A stretch of 64,000 bases of DNA. It comes from Escherichia coli (lineage in GTDB: Bacteria > Pseudomonadota > Gammaproteobacteria > Enterobacterales > Enterobacteriaceae). The first letter of the stretch is position 1, and each line of letters starts with the position of its first letter. A program made the position numbers and the translations under genes. The stretch is from the NCBI RefSeq assembly GCF_045037415.1, contig NZ_CP173438.1, one strand, 5' to 3'. Below, in pieces: positions 57,840-64,000 of this stretch. The notes below the pieces were generated by a model. That model searched no databases. It saw nothing but the letters and a program-made list of their open reading frames with translations, and was not told the origin of the DNA.

Positions 57840-58109
57840 GTGCGTAACTCAACAGCATCGCAGAAAAAGCAAATCAAAGGAAGTTCAGGGAACTGGCATC
57901 GTGCCGATATTGTGGCAGCACTTCACAAGCGAGGGTTAACGCTGGCGTTACTGTCACGCAGTCACGGCCTTGCGCCACGGACATTAAATAACGCCTTAGA
58001 GCGTCATTATCCCAGAGCTGAGCGCATTATTGCCGGGGCTCTGGATACGACACCGGAAACATTATGGCCGGAAAGGTATGCCCTTAAAAATGGACCTAAT
58101 AGCAGGTAA
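57840..58109 (+). CDS. Ner/Nlp-family DNA-binding regulator
   Basis: 89-aa ORF with WHRADIVAALHKRGLTLALLSRSHGLAPRTLNNALERHYPRAERIIAGALDTTPETLWPERY, near-collinear with phage Mu Ner (WHRADVIAGLKKRKLSLSALSRQFGYAPTTLANALERHWPKGEQIIANALETKPEVIWPSRY from memory). Confidence 0.85.
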   Translation: MRNSTASQKKQIKGSSGNWHRADIVAALHKRGLTLALLSRSHGLAPRTLNNALERHYPRAERIIAGALDTTPETLWPERYALKNGPNSR

Positions 58110-58120
58110 AGGATGCAACC

Positions 58121-58648
58121 ATGGCAACCACCATCACTGAAATAACGGAATGCTTTGAGTATTTTTTCAGTTCTCTTTATCGCAGGGAGTTCGTCAAAAC
58201 CCTGCGTCTGAACGAATGTAGCGAGCGGGAATTACTGCCTCTGGTACGTTGCTATTTGCTGGGTTGGTTTGCAGATAACGTCTCACCGGAAGTAAAAAGC
58301 AAACTGCCAGGAACTGTATCCGGGCACGGTTACATTGATTTTGTCATTGACGATGTGGCCGTTGAGTTTGCAGTACGTAAACCAACTGCGGCACGTTCCA
58401 ATGTCTCTGCGACCGTCAACAGTACAGAAGTAAAGAAATTGATGAAACATGACGGCAAAGCCTTGCTTGTGCTGTTTGATTTCTCTGACACACCCTATTC
58501 AGAAGAACAGATTGAATCCTTCCGCAACTGGCCCTCTCTTGGTCGAGGGAATCATCGCAAGTCTGCATTCAACGTCGTTTATTTCTTTGTGGAAAAACGC
58601 AGACCGCTGGCACTGGGGAAAATCACCAAAAACATCCGTATCACTTAA
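58121..58648 (+). CDS. hypothetical protein (possible PD-(D/E)xK-like fold)
   Basis: 175-aa ORF immediately after the ner-like gene; GYIDFVIDDVAVEFAVRK is weakly nuclease-like; assignment is speculative. Confidence 0.4.
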   Translation: MATTITEITECFEYFFSSLYRREFVKTLRLNECSERELLPLVRCYLLGWFADNVSPEVKSKLPGTVSGHGYIDFVIDDVAVEFAVRKPTAARSNVSATVNSTEVKKLMKHDGKALLVLFDFSDTPYSEEQIESFRNWPSLGRGNHRKSAFNVVYFFVEKRRPLALGKITKNIRIT

Positions 58649-58662
58649 CAGGGAATTAATTA

Positions 58663-59022
58663 ATGAACAGAAAACTGTTGGCCTTATTCATGGCAGCCAT
58701 AACGCTACCAGTCGCAGCAGCGCAGTACGTAAAACCCGGAGCGGTTCTAACCCTGCATCCGGGACAGAATAACGCTGAATTCAACATTAATGCCTCAACG
58801 GGGGATGGTTCGGGCGTATGCAATATGGAGGGGACAGCACAGCAAATAGCTGCCGGAGAAAGTCAGAAGCGTCGCTGGGTCTGGAATGACAATGCCAGCG
58901 AGTGTGTTGCAGTAATTAGTGAACTGACAAACGGTAAGGCCAGCATTATGACACGTGGTTGCGAGGGATACTGCGGGGCTTCTGCGGCAGGCGCAATGGA
59001 TGGTCTATTTAATAAGAAATAA
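58663..59022 (+). CDS. hypothetical secreted Cys-containing protein
   Basis: 119-aa ORF with signal peptide MNRKLLALFMAAITLPVAAAQ and four Cys. Confidence 0.5.
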   Translation: MNRKLLALFMAAITLPVAAAQYVKPGAVLTLHPGQNNAEFNINASTGDGSGVCNMEGTAQQIAAGESQKRRWVWNDNASECVAVISELTNGKASIMTRGCEGYCGASAAGAMDGLFNKK

Positions 59023-59052
59023 AAGTATCATTAATTTACGAAGGAACTACAG

Positions 59053-59388
59053 ATGAAAAGAGCAATACTTCTGGTATTAATTGCTGCTGGTTTGCTGGCT
59101 GGCTGCGGCGAGAAAACGCCAAAATGTAGTAGTGATGATGCAAAAAATCTGGTCGGGGATATTGCAAGAAAGACAATCGAGAAAGGGATGAAACTGGATA
59201 AGGATGTGCGTATTTCTGTAGAAAATGTCAGAACAATTAGCCATGAATCAGATCTGGATGTTTATCAGTGCGCTGCTGATTTAACGTTTACAAAACCAGA
59301 TTTGCAAAATTCTCTACCAATCACCTACCGGATTCAGAAAACTGATGAGGGTAAAGGTCCGTTTTATATAAACGTAACAGGTTTATAA
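59053..59388 (+). CDS. hypothetical lipoprotein
   Basis: 111-aa ORF with lipobox MKRAILLVLIAAGLLAGCGEK. Confidence 0.55.
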   Translation: MKRAILLVLIAAGLLAGCGEKTPKCSSDDAKNLVGDIARKTIEKGMKLDKDVRISVENVRTISHESDLDVYQCAADLTFTKPDLQNSLPITYRIQKTDEGKGPFYINVTGL

Positions 59389-59454
59389 TCACTGAATAAC
59401 ATCCGGGTTCCTTTTGGGTGAAATAATTCATGTTTTATTCCAAAAGGAAACCCT

Positions 59455-59700
59455 ATGAAAAAGATCATCATATTTACCATTATAGCTATTATCACATTTA
59501 GTTGGCTCGTTACACACAATACAACTGAGTCCGAAAAAATCCCTCCTGCTAATACTCCCTTTATTATTAAGTCTAACGTACCTGGCATGTGCAAGGTCAG
59601 CGCCATCACAACCTCTACAGATACCAAACAGAATATACCTGTCGTAGCGTGCAAAATCAGCATTACGACCGCAATCACTTCCAGTACTACCAGTTACTGA
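59455..59700 (+). CDS. hypothetical small secreted/membrane protein
   Basis: 81-aa ORF with N-terminal hydrophobic signal/anchor and a Ser/Thr-rich tail. Confidence 0.4.
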   Translation: MKKIIIFTIIAIITFSWLVTHNTTESEKIPPANTPFIIKSNVPGMCKVSAITTSTDTKQNIPVVACKISITTAITSSTTSY

Positions 59701-60267
59701 TCACTGTGTTTACTTTACCGACAGACTGGGATACAAAAACGTCAAACACCTTCTCAATCAGTCTTATACCGTAAGCAATGCCGGGTGTGTCGGGCTCTGA
59801 GGGTTGATTAATTCCACAGGCATATGAAGACTAAATCCTACCATCCCCATACCTGCTGAGCCGCTCCGTTGAACATCTTTATCGCCTTGCTGTGGGTGCC
59901 AATCACGGCTATCCCCGCCCGTCTTGTAGGTTGGGGCTCACCAAATACGATGCCACTGGGAAGCTCTTTCAGTGTCACGTAATGCCATTTATAGCCCAGA
60001 TATGACCTGCTACTGAGCTAACTACATTGATTTGCCTAAATCCTGGGGCCTCTAAAGCGTCAGCGCCGCGCAGCAGTATAGGCAAGCCACTTTTAACGGG
60101 TTTTATCCGGCTCCCTGAGGCTGCTTTCAGAAAAGGCGTGTAATCGGATAACTACAGCAACCTAGGGAAGTATGTGCTTGTAGAATGAATGCAGTGGTAA
60201 TCAAGACTACCGCTTTTACAAACCCCACCAATCGTATAACTGCGATTTGATGGCTACCCATCCTAAG

Positions 60268-62154
60268 TTACTTCATTAAAATAGCACTATTTTTTGAGGG
60301 CAGCGGGATAAGGGCTCTGCGCTCTCCATCCATTGCATGTTCACCCGCAAACCATTCGTAATGAACTTTATTCATGATTGATACCGGCGGTTCTTTATTC
60401 TCTATAACTATGATTTGTAAGGTATCAGGCAATTGGGTCAGTGAATGCCAGAAGCCTTCCTCAATACCAGCCGATATGGGTTCATCGAAGCCCGATACCG
60501 TAGCAGCGGCTTTCTTCTTATAACTTGTCAGCGGTGAATCAATCACGACTAGCCCAGGATGCGGGTATCCTTTTTTAATACAATATTTTAGTAATCCAAT
60601 GATGAAAGCTGAATAAAGAATGGCACGAACACCTTTACCGTGAGACTGCCGAGGTTGTCCATCAACAATGATGTCATACTCTTTTTCATTAAATGAAACG
60701 TCAGGCTCGGCACCCCATTTCCAGTCTTTTAAAACAGTTTCAATTTCTCTACAAAGTTCGGCCAGCGTACGGGTAGATAATCCCTCCCATTCGAGCCGTG
60801 GTTGACTGCTCTTTTCCAGCAGTATTTCTATATCCTTTTGATGTTTTAGTAACTCAAACCATCTCTGTCGATCATTCAACTCAGAGTCTCTTTCAGCTCG
60901 CTGCTCAATAGCTAAATCTAGGCTTTCTTTGGAAAGTGTAAGAAGAGGCTCAAAAGTATATTTGATCTGGTTCTTCATTCCATCCAAGCTTTCTTTTGAC
61001 TTATATCTGTCTATATTCAGAGCTTCTTTTCTTCGGTCAAGATCACTCATCGCTTTTTGCAGGCCTGCAAGGTATCCATGAATTTTTGCAGCTTCAGCTA
61101 AAGAAGAACGTCGGACTTCATTACTGTTCATTAATTTTTTAGCGTTCTCACTGTGTGGATGTAGTAAATTTTGTCCACAAAGGGAACAAGGAACTTCCTG
61201 AAGTGAAGTGAAATAGTGAGAACCTTCGGAAATAAAATCCAACCGCTTCAGGTCGGAATGGTAACGTTCTTCTAATAGGCTATATCTCGATTGAATTTCA
61301 GATACTCCCATTAACTGAGATTCTATTTTTAACGTTAACGCTGTCTCCATTTTTATTCCCTCGAGCAAGTCAGAAATAGCGGCTGCAGCCCTCTCAACTT
61401 CATCAATTGCTTGTGCAATCAATTGATCTGATAAATCATCTGCTGAGCTCGTTAATGGAAACTTGGGCGAACAAATTGAGAAACGTTCATCAAGTGGTCG
61501 AATCAAATCCTGGATGAATTCAAGCTTCGCCATCAACCTCGCTTTTACAATTTCAGGCTTTTCCTCTACGGTAACACCACCATCATCGTGCCCGGTAAGG
61601 ATGTATGAAAACATGCGTTTTCGAGCAGTGTCGTCATAACCGGAACGTCCCGTTACTGGCGAGTATTCGTCGATAATGGATACTTCATCTACCAAAAATA
61701 TAGGAGCGAGCGTTCGAATCGAGAAACGTTGCGTTTCGCCACGAGCATTCTTGCGAAGCTTCGCCTCTTTGATCCCCGCAAAAGGGAAAAGTATGGACGT
61801 CACATCTGGCCCCTTACTCGTTCCTTTACGCACAGGAGCAATTATTTTACCTTCTCCATGGATGTCTTGAATAGCGACATCATGTGCCTCTAATTTCCCC
61901 CCCTCAAGACCGCGCTTGAGCGTTAACACCCCCCCTTCATCATTTTCGAATTCAACATAAAGATGGGTGTAATCGGTGGCCTCTTTAAGCTTTTTTTTGA
62001 GTTTTTCGGCACCAAGAATGTAGTCAAGACAACTCACAAGGTAACTTTTCCCAGTATCAGATTCCCCTGCTAGAATATTCGCACCCTTATAGAAATCAAC
62101 ATAAGCGTCTTGAACGCTGTTTCCGCGCAATAGTATTTTTCTTATACGAAGCAT
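60268..62154 (-). CDS. Rad50/SMC-like ABC ATPase with coiled coil and central CxxC hook (LmuB/DdmC-like)
   Basis: ORF 60268..62175; start set at the ATG at 62154 (MLRIRKILLRG); N-terminal Walker A GESDTGKSYL, long helical middle with CSLCGQ near the midpoint, C-terminal Walker B/D-loop (GLVVIDSPLTSY); start lies 1 nt after the upstream gene's stop. Confidence 0.75.
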   Translation of the reverse strand: MLRIRKILLRGNSVQDAYVDFYKGANILAGESDTGKSYLVSCLDYILGAEKLKKKLKEATDYTHLYVEFENDEGGVLTLKRGLEGGKLEAHDVAIQDIHGEGKIIAPVRKGTSKGPDVTSILFPFAGIKEAKLRKNARGETQRFSIRTLAPIFLVDEVSIIDEYSPVTGRSGYDDTARKRMFSYILTGHDDGGVTVEEKPEIVKARLMAKLEFIQDLIRPLDERFSICSPKFPLTSSADDLSDQLIAQAIDEVERAAAAISDLLEGIKMETALTLKIESQLMGVSEIQSRYSLLEERYHSDLKRLDFISEGSHYFTSLQEVPCSLCGQNLLHPHSENAKKLMNSNEVRRSSLAEAAKIHGYLAGLQKAMSDLDRRKEALNIDRYKSKESLDGMKNQIKYTFEPLLTLSKESLDLAIEQRAERDSELNDRQRWFELLKHQKDIEILLEKSSQPRLEWEGLSTRTLAELCREIETVLKDWKWGAEPDVSFNEKEYDIIVDGQPRQSHGKGVRAILYSAFIIGLLKYCIKKGYPHPGLVVIDSPLTSYKKKAAATVSGFDEPISAGIEEGFWHSLTQLPDTLQIIVIENKEPPVSIMNKVHYEWFAGEHAMDGERRALIPLPSKNSAILMK

Positions 62155-62155
62155 G

Positions 62156-62671
62156 TTATAAATCCAGTAGATCAATTGCGGTCAATCGGTCGAATTCAGA
62201 ACCCCATTGCCCCACATTCTGAGATATATATGAAGCAAGTTCTTCATCCGTATATTCATAGAATTGCTTTGTGACCCAAGAGGCACGTTCTGCGAGCTCT
62301 TTTGAATACTGTGACATCAAAAGCCGCACAAACCTTCCTGTTAAATTGGTAGCCTGATACAAAATACCTTCGGCAGCAAAGACAACCTTAATCAATTCTC
62401 TTGATAGCATTAAATGCAGCCCTGCCTGAATTGCGCTTCGCTTAACAAGAAGCTCTGCTCCCCGGTGAGGAACTGCTGGATGAAGGCTTTTAGGCCCCCT
62501 AGGTACGTCACTGGTATGCACAAGAAGATAGTCATACGAAACTATCCTTTGTAGGTCCATTGCTACATTGTCCGCTGCATCCAATATGAACAGAGCACGA
62601 AATCCATACTCCAGCGGAGTGTTAAAAGGTCTCTGCTCAAAGTTTCCTTCAAATACTTGCATTTCGCTCAT
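62156..62671 (-). CDS. small middle-component protein (LmuC/DdmB-like)
   Basis: ORF 62156..62683 opens with a non-ATG codon; the ATG at 62671 (MSEMQVFEG) overlaps the upstream stop as ATGA; about 171 aa, no recognisable catalytic motif. Confidence 0.6.
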   Translation of the reverse strand: MSEMQVFEGNFEQRPFNTPLEYGFRALFILDAADNVAMDLQRIVSYDYLLVHTSDVPRGPKSLHPAVPHRGAELLVKRSAIQAGLHLMLSRELIKVVFAAEGILYQATNLTGRFVRLLMSQYSKELAERASWVTKQFYEYTDEELASYISQNVGQWGSEFDRLTAIDLLDL

Positions 62672-63807
62672 GGATTGCACCAATTAATCAAGTTTGTATT
62701 GGCTAGTTGGTGGCATATACCTTCACGATCCTTATTCGTTACGTGAATGGCAAGTGGGTGCGCACCAAGTTGCAGGGTCTGAGCGGCCTTGACGGTATTT
62801 TTTAACCGAAGGAGTGGAGTCCCTGTCAGGTCAGAGGTGTAGTGATACAGACCATCATCAAACTCTACAAGTAAAGAATTAAAGAATTCTTGATTCGCCA
62901 TTTGGTCCCTAGCGAGTTCCTTTAGCCCTTCCGAGCAATAAAAAGTTATTCGGGACCGTTCAAAGAGTTTTACATGGCTGATACTTGATTGAAAATCAAC
63001 TAAATCTCGCACGTTGGTTTTGATATCAGCGCTGATAACTGAAAAGAGTTGTTCAATATATACAGTTTCAATGGGAGCCACAGATGATGGGGGCCTAGTT
63101 GGTGGATCCCGCTCAATTAATGGTGCGCCAAAGACCATAAGATGAAAAGAGGTTTTACTGTGTTCGGCAAGTATCTCAATAGGCTGTTTTGCATGAAAAA
63201 TACTAAAATCAAACTCTTTAATATATTTTTCAAGTTCAGGCGTCAGGTCAACACTATGTTTCGATGTAATTTGCTTTGAAAAAGTTGCCCACTCGGATAG
63301 CATTTTCTCTTTGAGTTTAGTTGGATCATCTAGGAGGTCTTGGAATGGCGATGTTACCCCTTTATGTGTAACAAAATGGTATTGTGTAGGTACTGTGTAG
63401 TCCTTGATGAAAGTATAATAGATAACTTTTGCAACTTCGATGCCTGCCTTAGGAAGGCCTAAATTCGCATCATAATGTTTGCATTGATATAAGTGCCATC
63501 TTCGAGGAACAGCATCAGATGGATCAAGCCATACAACAATATCTCTGCCTTTATCTCCTGCCCCGCCACGTTGTTGTACTTCGTTGACATATTGCTGACC
63601 AGCTAAGTATTCAGAGGCCCATTCGAGTGTAAACCTTTCAAATTCGGCGGCGCTAAACTGTGCCAGACGATCCAAGGGGGCTATTGGAAGCCCTACACCT
63701 AACCCAAGCAGCCGAGCGTTCGCACCCGGCCACGTTGTAGGAGCAGAAAGCGCGCCAAGCGTCGAACTTGAATTTTGTTTCATCTTCTCTACCACCACAA
63801 CCTCCAT
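62668..63807 (-). CDS. putative effector with N-terminal PD-(D/E)xK-like (Cap4/DUF4297-like) nuclease motif (LmuA/DdmA-like)
   Basis: 379-aa ORF; GDKGRDIVVWLDPSD...WHLYQCKHY fits a D...(E/Q)xK nuclease core; first gene of a 3-gene coupled operon; alternative start at the ATG at 63783. Confidence 0.6.
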   Translation of the reverse strand: MEVVVVEKMKQNSSSTLGALSAPTTWPGANARLLGLGVGLPIAPLDRLAQFSAAEFERFTLEWASEYLAGQQYVNEVQQRGGAGDKGRDIVVWLDPSDAVPRRWHLYQCKHYDANLGLPKAGIEVAKVIYYTFIKDYTVPTQYHFVTHKGVTSPFQDLLDDPTKLKEKMLSEWATFSKQITSKHSVDLTPELEKYIKEFDFSIFHAKQPIEILAEHSKTSFHLMVFGAPLIERDPPTRPPSSVAPIETVYIEQLFSVISADIKTNVRDLVDFQSSISHVKLFERSRITFYCSEGLKELARDQMANQEFFNSLLVEFDDGLYHYTSDLTGTPLLRLKNTVKAAQTLQLGAHPLAIHVTNKDREGICHQLANTNLINWCNP

Positions 63808-64000
63808 GGAGAAGTGATATTAAATCTTTAGTCTTTTAAAATTTTACAAAATCTAACACAGTGCGCCAGGAAAGTAATTGACTAAGGTTCCCCACACACA
63901 AGAGCAAATCTTAACCTTGCTACGGGACATAACTACTTCCGCCCCACCGGCTACCCAGTCATCGACAGTTTGGCAGCTCACTCCACTGTGCCGAGCATAA

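What the first reader, a model, noticed from the sequence alone, without database searches (positions are those of the whole stretch)
59701..60267. About 570-bp stretch with no ORF of 60 aa or more in any frame, just downstream of the defence-like cassette
Seen in sequence: between the last small secreted-protein gene and the stop of the ABC ATPase gene there is a moderately GC-rich stretch with no long ORF on either strand. It lies at the 3' end of the convergent defence operon. Inference: could hold a terminator region, a small RNA, a degraded gene remnant or an internal recombination site of the island.
Basis: seen in the sequence. Interest (0 to 1): 0.3.

Follow-up and report, generated by a model that had tools for sequence, protein, structure and literature searches.

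The report
Dead gene scrap between island modules
The ORF-free stretch is real but ordinary: it is a junction scar in an E. coli ST131 defence island, made of a decayed fragment of a homing-endonuclease-like gene wedged between the tail of the island backbone and the 3' flank of a Lamassu anti-phage cassette.

Summary
The stretch exists and is the longest part of the 64-kb window without an ORF of 60 aa or more (493 bp by the strict count). It is identical in about 505 complete E. coli genomes of an ST131-type lineage. NCBI's PGAP annotation pipeline annotated nothing there in any of the 40 records listed.

It is a three-part mosaic:
1. **59701-59835.** The fast-diverging tail of a conserved island backbone, shared with E. 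coli 2015C-4136CT1 at only 70% identity here.
2. **59834-60151, minus strand.** An internal fragment, about 114 codons, of an HNH/NUMOD-like homing-endonuclease-type gene. It is split over three reading frames. After frame repair it is 54% identical to residues 354-466 of a 577-aa metagenomic protein. The catalytic N-terminus and the C-terminus are missing.
3. **60174-60267.** The 3' flank of lmuB. It belongs to a discrete 3.74-kb Lamassu (ABC-3C) cassette that is 90% identical to one in Enterobacteriaceae bacterium RIT691.

There is no Rfam match, no tRNA, no canonical terminator, no excess of promoter-like sites and no unusual folding. ISEc52 sits inside the stretch in some strains.

Verdict: a non-functional remnant at a module junction of a defence-cargo hotspot. 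Low interest.

The parts
59389..59454 (+). Spacer after the 111-aa gene. It holds a roughly 21-bp hairpin (59405-59453) that covers the ribosome-binding site and ATG of the 81-aa ORF. Homology to LD67-1-type islands ends at 59391.
   Evidence: z -3.7 in the window and -4.7 in L002, with a GGG/CCC to GGA/TCC compensatory change. for the 59391 breakpoint.
59455..59700 (+). Doubtful as a gene, or a decaying one.
   Evidence: Not annotated by PGAP. Split into 30-aa and 31-aa pieces in L002. 79.8% identity with 3 gap columns, and substitutions by codon position of 13/16/18. No Pfam, PHROG, PADLOC or NCBIfam match.
59701..59835 (.). Tail of the conserved island backbone, apparently unconstrained.
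   Evidence: Shared only with E. coli 2015C-4136CT1 (L002). 70.4% identity and no codon bias in the open minus-strand frame (13/11/13).
59834..60151 (-). Internal fragment, about 114 codons, of an HNH/NUMOD-like homing-endonuclease-type gene. Pieces: 60151-60011 (frame -1), 60008-59895 (frame -3), 59895-59833 (frame -2). At least two frameshifts. The catalytic N-terminal 352 aa and the C-terminal 111 aa are absent.
   Evidence: phmmer against 1.84 billion representatives: P0003, E 1e-12, 3 stretches. tblastn sum E 3e-19. Frame-repaired translation 54% identical over 114 aa to P0003 residues 354-466, E 6e-35 pairwise. P0003 matches PF22083 I-HmuI NUMOD-like, PHROG HNH and homing-endonuclease families, and PADLOC HEase.
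59992..59993 (.). Site where ISEc52 (IS3 family) is inserted in a few ST131 genomes.
   Evidence: H130 match stops at query base 292; L013: the IS lies between the two halves of the stretch.
60152..60173 (.). 22 bp at the junction that could not be assigned to either neighbour.
   Evidence: Lies between the end of the L004 homology (60174) and the start of the P0003 homology (60151).
60174..60267 (-). 3' flank of lmuB, part of the Lamassu cassette. It contains a stem-loop (about 60193-60214), a possible non-canonical terminator or 3'-end hairpin. It also holds most of a 44-aa ORF (60127-60261) that is not conserved.
   Evidence: About 84% identical to L004 downstream of its lmuB. The stem is perfect in L004 and has one mismatch here. 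The 44-aa ORF has a stop at codon 10 in L004.
60174..63917 (-). Discrete 3.74-kb Lamassu / ABC-3C cassette: lmuA (Mrr_cat + CTD6, 62668-63807), lmuC (MC2, 62156-62683) and lmuB (60268-62175).
   Evidence: 90.1% identity over 3751 bp to Enterobacteriaceae bacterium RIT691 (L004), with sharp ends. Pfam and PADLOC assignments.

Best explanation
The stretch is a non-functional junction scar in the variable (cargo) part of a chromosomal defence island. The island is inserted between ychF and dhaR in ST131-type E. coli.

Three unrelated pieces abut:
1. The unconstrained tail of the conserved island backbone (to 59835).
2. A 318-bp internal fragment of a former cargo gene on the minus strand (59834-60151). 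That gene encoded an HNH homing-endonuclease-like protein with repeated NUMOD-like DNA-binding modules.
3. The last 94 bp of a self-contained Lamassu cassette (from 60174).

Shown: the three homology blocks, their sharp ends, and the frameshifts and truncations of the fragment.

Inferred: successive illegitimate recombination or deletion events exchanged cargo at this hotspot and cut the endonuclease gene at both ends. The fragment has since drifted neutrally. At most, the DNA passively separates two convergent transcription units. The small hairpin in the lmuB flank may help to end the lmuACB transcript.
For: - The same 567 bp is at least 99% identical in 505 of 5426 complete E. coli genomes, and nothing is annotated under it in the 40 records listed.
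- Related islands share the left backbone only up to 59391 (95% identity) or 59759 by megablast, which extends to 59827-59835 by blastn and direct comparison. They carry different cargo after that point.
- Identity to L002 falls steadily towards the junction: 98, 95.5, 93, 90, 80 and 70%.
- An independent copy of the Lamassu cassette (L004) matches window 60174-63917 and nothing beyond.
- The 346 bp in between carry three collinear matches, in three different minus-strand frames, to P0003 residues 353-466. Values: E 1e-12 library-wide, 3e-19 by tblastn, 54% identity after frame repair.
- P0003 is homing-endonuclease-like.
- No part of the window matches P0003 residues 1-352 or 467-577.
- ISEc52 is tolerated inside the fragment in some strains.
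- No Rfam family, tRNA or canonical terminator was found, and promoter-like sites are below the shuffle mean. Fold z-scores are +0.76 and +1.02.
- The surrounding island is full of other pseudogenes and IS remnants.
Against: - Only one intact relative (P0003, from a single 5.5-kb metagenome contig) supports the identification.
- The fragment itself does not reach any Pfam or PHROG model.
- All copies of the stretch are clonal (at least 99% identical), so conservation cannot separate neutrality from constraint.
- No expression data were available, so a transcript or 3'-UTR function cannot be excluded.
- The order and mechanism of the rearrangements are inferred, not observed.
Confidence: 0.85

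Rival explanations
1. The stretch encodes a small regulatory RNA or a functional long 3' UTR of lmuB, for example one that controls the Lamassu system or the convergent small-gene operon.
For: The 94 bp after the lmuB stop are kept at about 84% identity in the RIT691 cassette and fold somewhat better than shuffles (z -2.56 here, -3.15 in L004), with a conserved stem-loop.
Against: - No Rfam match at E<=1.
- Whole-region fold z-scores are +0.76 and +1.02.
- One promoter-like site against 2.4 expected, and that one lies outside the stretch. No terminator-like site.
- Conservation with the other cassette stops at 60174, so about 470 of the 567 bp are not part of any conserved unit.
- An IS insertion is tolerated at 59992.
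Confidence: 0.05
2. The stretch holds real small-protein genes: the hydrophobic 44-aa ORF just after lmuB (60127-60261, -) or the 46-aa ORF inside the fragment (59838-59978, -). Gene callers have predicted both somewhere (P0001, P0002).
For: The 44-aa ORF starts 7 nt after the lmuB stop and has a transmembrane-like core. P0001 and P0002 exist as called proteins in public collections.
Against: - The 44-aa ORF has a stop at codon 10 in the RIT691 cassette.
- P0001 (95 aa) comes from one metagenome contig that differs only by one extra C in a C-run. It fuses flank sequence to the endonuclease fragment.
- The 46-aa ORF is simply the middle piece of the frameshifted fragment.
- None has a family match.
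- PGAP calls none of them in the records listed.
Confidence: 0.04
3. The stretch contains an active site-specific recombination or attachment site, used by one of the island's tyrosine recombinases to swap defence cargo.
For: Three homology breakpoints cluster within 800 bp (59391, 59835, 60174). Different islands carry different cargo at exactly this place. The backbone encodes a tyrosine recombinase.
Against: - No direct or inverted repeats mark the junctions, and the repeats found are short chance-level pairs.
- No tRNA or tmRNA fragment.
- The breakpoints differ between islands rather than coinciding at one core site.
- One junction cuts through the middle of a coding repeat, which points to illegitimate rather than site-specific recombination.
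Confidence: 0.06

Closest known systems
Free-standing HNH homing endonucleases with NUMOD-type DNA-binding modules (I-HmuI-like; Pfam PF22083, PHROG 20162 and 655, PADLOC 'HEase')
   Same: The frame-repaired translation of 59834-60151 is 54% identical over 114 aa to repeat units of P0003. P0003's equivalent repeats match PF22083. Its N-terminus matches phrog_655 (homing endonuclease) and its repeat region matches phrog_20162 (HNH endonuclease) and PADLOC HEase.
   Different: Only about 1.5 DNA-binding repeat units survive. The catalytic HNH part is absent, the reading frame is broken at least twice, and the fragment itself reaches no family model. It is a dead remnant, not a member with function.
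Gene remnants and scars at cargo junctions of bacterial defence islands and integrative-element hotspots
   Same: A conserved backbone (integrase, RadC, DUF2787, HTH proteins) flanks variable defence cargo. Different strains carry Lamassu plus a retron, an HNH + AAA ATPase pair plus a second ABC-3C system, or a giant ATPase. Truncated genes sit at the boundaries, for example a 45-aa ImmA/IrrE fragment at the same place in L002.
   Different: Nothing unusual. This instance had simply not been annotated.
3' flank of Lamassu (LmuACB / ABC-3C, DdmABC-type) operons
   Same: 60174-60267 travels with lmuB in an independent cassette copy and carries a conserved stem-loop. Papers found mention ABC-3C in work on Lamassu; that the two names denote the same system is my own knowledge, supported here by the matching Pfam ABC-3C and PADLOC Lmu assignments.
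   Different: Only 94 of the 567 bp belong to it. More distant lmuB loci (L005-L010) share nothing downstream of the stop.

Membership tests
HNH/NUMOD-like homing endonuclease (I-HmuI-like) | HNH (beta-beta-alpha-metal) catalytic domain | tested here: not met
   tblastn of P0003 against the whole window finds no match to its residues 1-352. The fragment starts at residue 353.
HNH/NUMOD-like homing endonuclease (I-HmuI-like) | NUMOD-like helix-turn-helix DNA-binding repeat (PF22083) | tested here: inconclusive
   The fragment has no direct Pfam or PHROG match. It is 54% identical to P0003 residues 354-466. It also aligns to P0003 residues 464-486, the best PF22083 stretch in that protein.
HNH/NUMOD-like homing endonuclease (I-HmuI-like) | Intact open reading frame | tested here: not met
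   The homology runs through three different frames with stops between them, and the gene is truncated at both ends.
Lamassu / ABC-3C cassette (as its 3' flank) | Adjacent lmuA-lmuC-lmuB genes, and co-inheritance of the flank with them | tested here: met
   PADLOC: LmuB 2.8e-176, LmuC 4.3e-57, LmuA 1.4e-105. Pfam: MC2 and CTD6. Only 60174-60267 is shared with the RIT691 cassette.
Any curated RNA family (Rfam 15) | Covariance-model match | tested here: not met
   No match at E<=1 in 58000-62000 on either strand.
Intrinsic (rho-independent) terminator | GC-rich stem-loop followed by a U-tract | tested here: not met
   0 sites in 59300-60400 against 0.8 expected. The conserved lmuB-flank hairpin lacks a U-tract on the lmuB strand.
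Integrative-element attachment site | tRNA/tmRNA fragment or flanking direct repeats at the junction | tested here: not met
   No tRNA or tmRNA. Only short, chance-level repeats. The junction sequences show no shared core.

The most novel reading that the evidence does not exclude
The endonuclease fragment may be the relic of the agent that drove cargo exchange at this hotspot. A free-standing homing endonuclease could have cut the island backbone of naive strains and carried neighbouring defence genes in by repair ('collateral homing'), and then been inactivated once the Lamassu cassette arrived. Nothing here tests this. No other lmuB locus examined has such a gene next to it.
Probability: 0.04. 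Interest if true: 0.5.

Novelty: new member of a known kind. Interest (0 to 1): 0.1.

Why it matters
It matters little in itself. The result explains the longest ORF-free gap in the window as a pseudogene scrap at a module junction, so no new RNA or gene needs to be proposed.

It has three practical uses:
1. It gives base-level boundaries for a portable 3.74-kb Lamassu cassette (60174-63917) and for the conserved backbone of a ychF-dhaR defence island in the pandemic ST131 lineage.
2. It flags the 81-aa 'secreted protein' ORF as doubtful.
3. It shows that gene callers occasionally emit spurious proteins from this scrap (P0001, P0002).

Tried and rejected
- **Rfam.** E-value scans of 58000-62000, and of the region around the retron reverse-transcriptase gene that starts just past the window end, found nothing.
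- **Pfam on open stretches.** Nine separate six-frame open stretches and the frame-repaired fragment gave nothing.
- **Other libraries.** PHROGs on the fragment, and PHROGs, NCBIfam and PADLOC on the 81-aa ORF, gave nothing.
- **Word-indexed protein search.** The repaired fragment returned only P0001, a self-match.
- **tblastn of the fragment.** Phage records gave only a chance 0.2 E-value match. Plasmid records gave only two E. coli records carrying this same island.
- **IMG/VR scans.** Neither the fragment nor P0003 found a relative.
- **Distant blastn in E. coli genomes and plasmids.** Only the clonal copies at 99% identity or more appeared, so no covariation or selection analysis was possible.
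- **Repeats and tRNAs.** Repeat search and tRNA search at the junctions gave nothing meaningful.
- **Literature.** A search for the ychF-dhaR island found nothing relevant.
- **P0004.** This weak match (E 8e-4) hit a plus-strand open stretch from a highly repetitive 835-aa protein. I judged it spurious and did not test it further.
- **Minus-strand open frame in the tail (59690-59830).** It is also open in L002, so I considered it as a gene 3' end. I rejected this: 70% identity, substitutions 13/11/13 by codon position, and no homologue.

Full report
**Where the window comes from.** The 671 bp around the finding are 100% identical to the chromosomes of ST131-type E. coli such as O25b:H4 strains, JJ1886 and SK1144. 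A copy at least 99% identical is present in 505 of 5426 complete E. coli genomes, always on the chromosome. In SK1144 the stretch lies in an island of roughly 27 kb between ychF and dhaR. The island starts with a tyrosine integrase and is littered with IS elements and pseudogenes. On the plus strand, an HTH_35 gene and three small genes run towards the stretch. On the minus strand a three-gene cassette runs towards it. Pfam labels the cassette ABC-3C (Mrr_cat + CTD6 effector, MC2 middle component, ABC/SMC-like ATPase). PADLOC labels the same genes LmuA, LmuC and LmuB, that is Lamassu. A retron Ec67-family reverse-transcriptase gene lies just beyond the window end.

**Checking the observation.** No ORF of 60 aa or more lies inside 59701-60267. 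One mechanical 61-aa GTG ORF (59589-59774) reaches 74 bp into it, so the strictly ORF-free interval is 59775-60267. That 493-bp interval is the longest in the window; the next is 397 bp. As sequence this is unremarkable, because 40% of shuffles of the 567 bp also lack such an ORF. GC content is 0.49-0.52 in the middle. That is higher than the flanks (0.36-0.42) but equal to the window mean of 0.506. Nothing was annotated under the stretch in any of the 40 records listed.

**The stretch is a mosaic with three homology breakpoints.**
- *Megablast with 8 kb.* About 500 clonal genomes cover everything. Some other E. coli match only the left part. One group (for example LD67-1) matches up to window 59391 at 95% identity. 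One strain (2015C-4136CT1) matches up to 59759.
- *Sensitive blastn and direct comparison.* These extend the 2015C-4136CT1 match to 59827-59835.
- *Cargo beyond the breakpoints.* These islands carry different cargo there. 2015C-4136CT1 has a 45-aa ImmA/IrrE fragment, then an HNH nuclease + AAA ATPase pair and a second ABC-3C system. LD67-1 has a 1727-aa ATP-binding protein.
- *From the other side.* A scan of one genome per species with LmuB found seven loci. The closest is Enterobacteriaceae bacterium RIT691 (L004). It is 90.1% identical at the DNA level over window 60174-63917 and unrelated beyond both ends.

So the Lamassu genes form a discrete 3.74-kb module whose last 94 bp are the right end of the finding. 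The 346 bp from 59828 to 60173 belong to neither neighbour.

**What the middle piece is.**
- *Search.* I joined all six-frame open stretches of the region into one query and ran phmmer against 1.84 billion representative proteins. Two hits were self-matches (P0001, P0002). One was a real relative: P0003, 577 aa, E 1e-12, three matched stretches.
- *Collinear matches.* tblastn of P0003 against the window gives three collinear matches on the minus strand in three different frames, with sum E 3e-19:

| Window coordinates | Frame | P0003 residues |
|---|---|---|
| 60151-60011 | -1 | 353-404 |
| 60008-59895 | -3 | 408-444 |
| 59895-59833 | -2 | 445-465 |

- *Frame repair.* Joining the frames gives a translation 54% identical to P0003 residues 354-466 over 114 aa. 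It also aligns, more weakly, to the other repeats of P0003.
- *What P0003 is.* It matches PF22083 (I-HmuI NUMOD-like domain, 45 bits against a cut-off of 27), phrog_20162 (HNH endonuclease, 1.8e-30), phrog_655 (homing endonuclease, over its N-terminus) and PADLOC 'HEase'.
- *What is missing.* Nothing in the window matches P0003 residues 1-352, which include the nuclease part, or residues 467-577.

The piece is therefore an internal fragment of about 1.5 repeat units from the DNA-binding region of a homing-endonuclease-like gene. It is frameshifted at least twice and cut at both ends. The left cut (59834/59835) coincides to within a few bases with the end of the backbone homology. The right cut lies 22 bp from the end of the cassette homology.

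**The left third (59701-59835).** This belongs to the backbone but looks unconstrained. Against 2015C-4136CT1, identity falls steadily towards the junction:

| Segment | Identity |
|---|---|
| HTH_35 gene | 98% |
| 175-aa gene | 95.5% |
| 119-aa gene | 93% |
| 111-aa gene | 90% |
| 81-aa ORF | 80% |
| Tail 59701-59835 | 70% |

Substitutions in the 175-aa gene are 0/2/22 by codon position, which shows clear purifying selection, and those in the 111-aa gene are 9/4/21. The 119-aa gene shows no such bias (7/8/9). Those in the 81-aa ORF are 13/16/18. Those in the open minus-strand frame of the tail are 13/11/13. The 81-aa ORF is also frameshifted in that strain.

**Tests for a functional element.**
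- Rfam: no match at E<=1.
- tRNA or tmRNA: none.
- Promoter-like sites: 1 against 2.4 expected, and it lies outside the stretch. Terminator-like sites: 0 against 0.8 expected.
- Folding of the whole 567 nt: z +0.76 on the plus strand and +1.02 on the minus strand.
- The only locally structured part is the lmuB 3' flank (z -2.56). Its short stem-loop (about 60193-60214) is perfect in RIT691 (z -3.15 for that flank). It has no U-tract on the lmuB strand, so it is only a candidate non-canonical 3'-end hairpin.
- The 44-aa hydrophobic ORF that starts 7 nt after lmuB has a stop at codon 10 in RIT691.
- P0001, a called 95-aa protein, comes from one metagenome contig. That contig is identical to the window except for one extra C in a C-run, which fuses flank sequence to the fragment.
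- In several ST131 genomes ISEc52 sits at about 59992, inside the fragment.

**Interpretation.** The block structure, the truncations and the frameshifts are shown. The history is inferred. This position, just after the backbone's small-gene operon, is a cargo hotspot. An earlier cargo included a homing-endonuclease-like gene on the minus strand. Later illegitimate recombination or deletion removed both of its ends and placed the Lamassu cassette, with a retron beside it, next to what was left. The remnant is drifting neutrally. Its only plausible role is passive spacing between convergent transcription units.

The rivals each get a few percent: a small RNA or functional 3' UTR, small proteins, or an active recombination site. 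They cannot be excluded without expression or deletion data, because all copies are clonal and conservation is therefore uninformative.

**Comparison with what is known.** The fragment resembles I-HmuI-like HNH/NUMOD homing endonucleases. It fails membership as a functional gene: no catalytic domain, no intact frame, and no direct model match. The overall situation, truncated genes at the junctions of swapped defence cargo, is the ordinary texture of defence islands. The neighbouring cassette is a standard Lamassu/ABC-3C system. Papers found mention ABC-3C in work on Lamassu; the equivalence of the two names is my own knowledge, supported here by the matching Pfam and PADLOC assignments.

**Verdict.** It is an unannotated pseudogene scrap at a module junction, and of low interest.

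Noticed in passing
window 59405-59453: A strong hairpin of about 21 bp sits just after the stop of the 111-aa gene and covers the ribosome-binding site and ATG of the 81-aa ORF. It is kept in strain 2015C-4136CT1 despite only 75% local identity, with a compensatory GGG/CCC to GGA/TCC change (z -3.7 and -4.7). Homology to LD67-1-type islands ends at 59391, just before it. It may be the 3'-end or terminator hairpin of the plus-strand operon, though it has no U-tract.
   Followed up: partly
window 59455-59700 (+): The 81-aa 'secreted protein' ORF has a good Shine-Dalgarno sequence and a signal-like N-terminus. However, PGAP does not annotate it, it is frameshifted in the only diverged homologue, it shows no codon-position bias, and it has no family match. 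It is probably not a functional gene, or is a decaying one.
   Followed up: yes
L001 16393-18150 (just beyond window end; window 64000 = L001 16351): A retron Ec67-family reverse transcriptase/endonuclease gene lies directly upstream of the Lamassu cassette on the same strand, followed by an IS5. The RIT691 copy of the cassette has no same-strand ORF of that size upstream, so the two systems appear to be separate modules. Rfam finds no msr/msd-type RNA near it.
   Followed up: partly
window about 40843 onward (record NZ_AP018784.2 2734235-2761500): The whole island sits between ychF and dhaR and starts with a tyrosine integrase. It contains many decayed genes: ISEc24, an IS91 fragment, an ATP-binding pseudogene, a frameshifted DUF3999 gene and a partial transposase. 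An inner conserved block carries a second tyrosine recombinase, RadC, DUF2787 and HTH genes, with variable cargo on both sides.
   Followed up: partly
L002 15832-19401 and 21578-26328; L003 15157-20340: At the same backbone position other E. coli carry different cargo. 2015C-4136CT1 has a 45-aa ImmA/IrrE fragment, an HNH endonuclease + AAA ATPase pair (Septu-like by gene content, not tested) and a second ABC-3C system. LD67-1 has a 1727-aa ATP-binding protein. This looks like a defence-cargo hotspot.
   Followed up: no
PLSDB records CP088398.1 (377 kb) and CP054248.1 (542 kb): Two records filed as non-mobilizable E. coli 'plasmids' carry this chromosomal island stretch at 100% identity. They are probably mis-assigned chromosome pieces.
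   Followed up: no
L011 906-4923: On its metagenome contig, the only intact relative of the fragment (P0003) is preceded by a 293-aa paralogue (26% identical) and a 468-aa HNH_2 protein, behind a small HTH gene. The family looks rare: no relatives turned up in IMG/VR, phage records or plasmid records.
   Followed up: partly
window 60268-62175 (-): The mechanical lmuB ORF is 635 aa from a TTG start. PGAP aa (1887 bp), and the RIT691 homologue is 622 aa from an ATG. The true start is probably downstream of the TTG.
   Followed up: no
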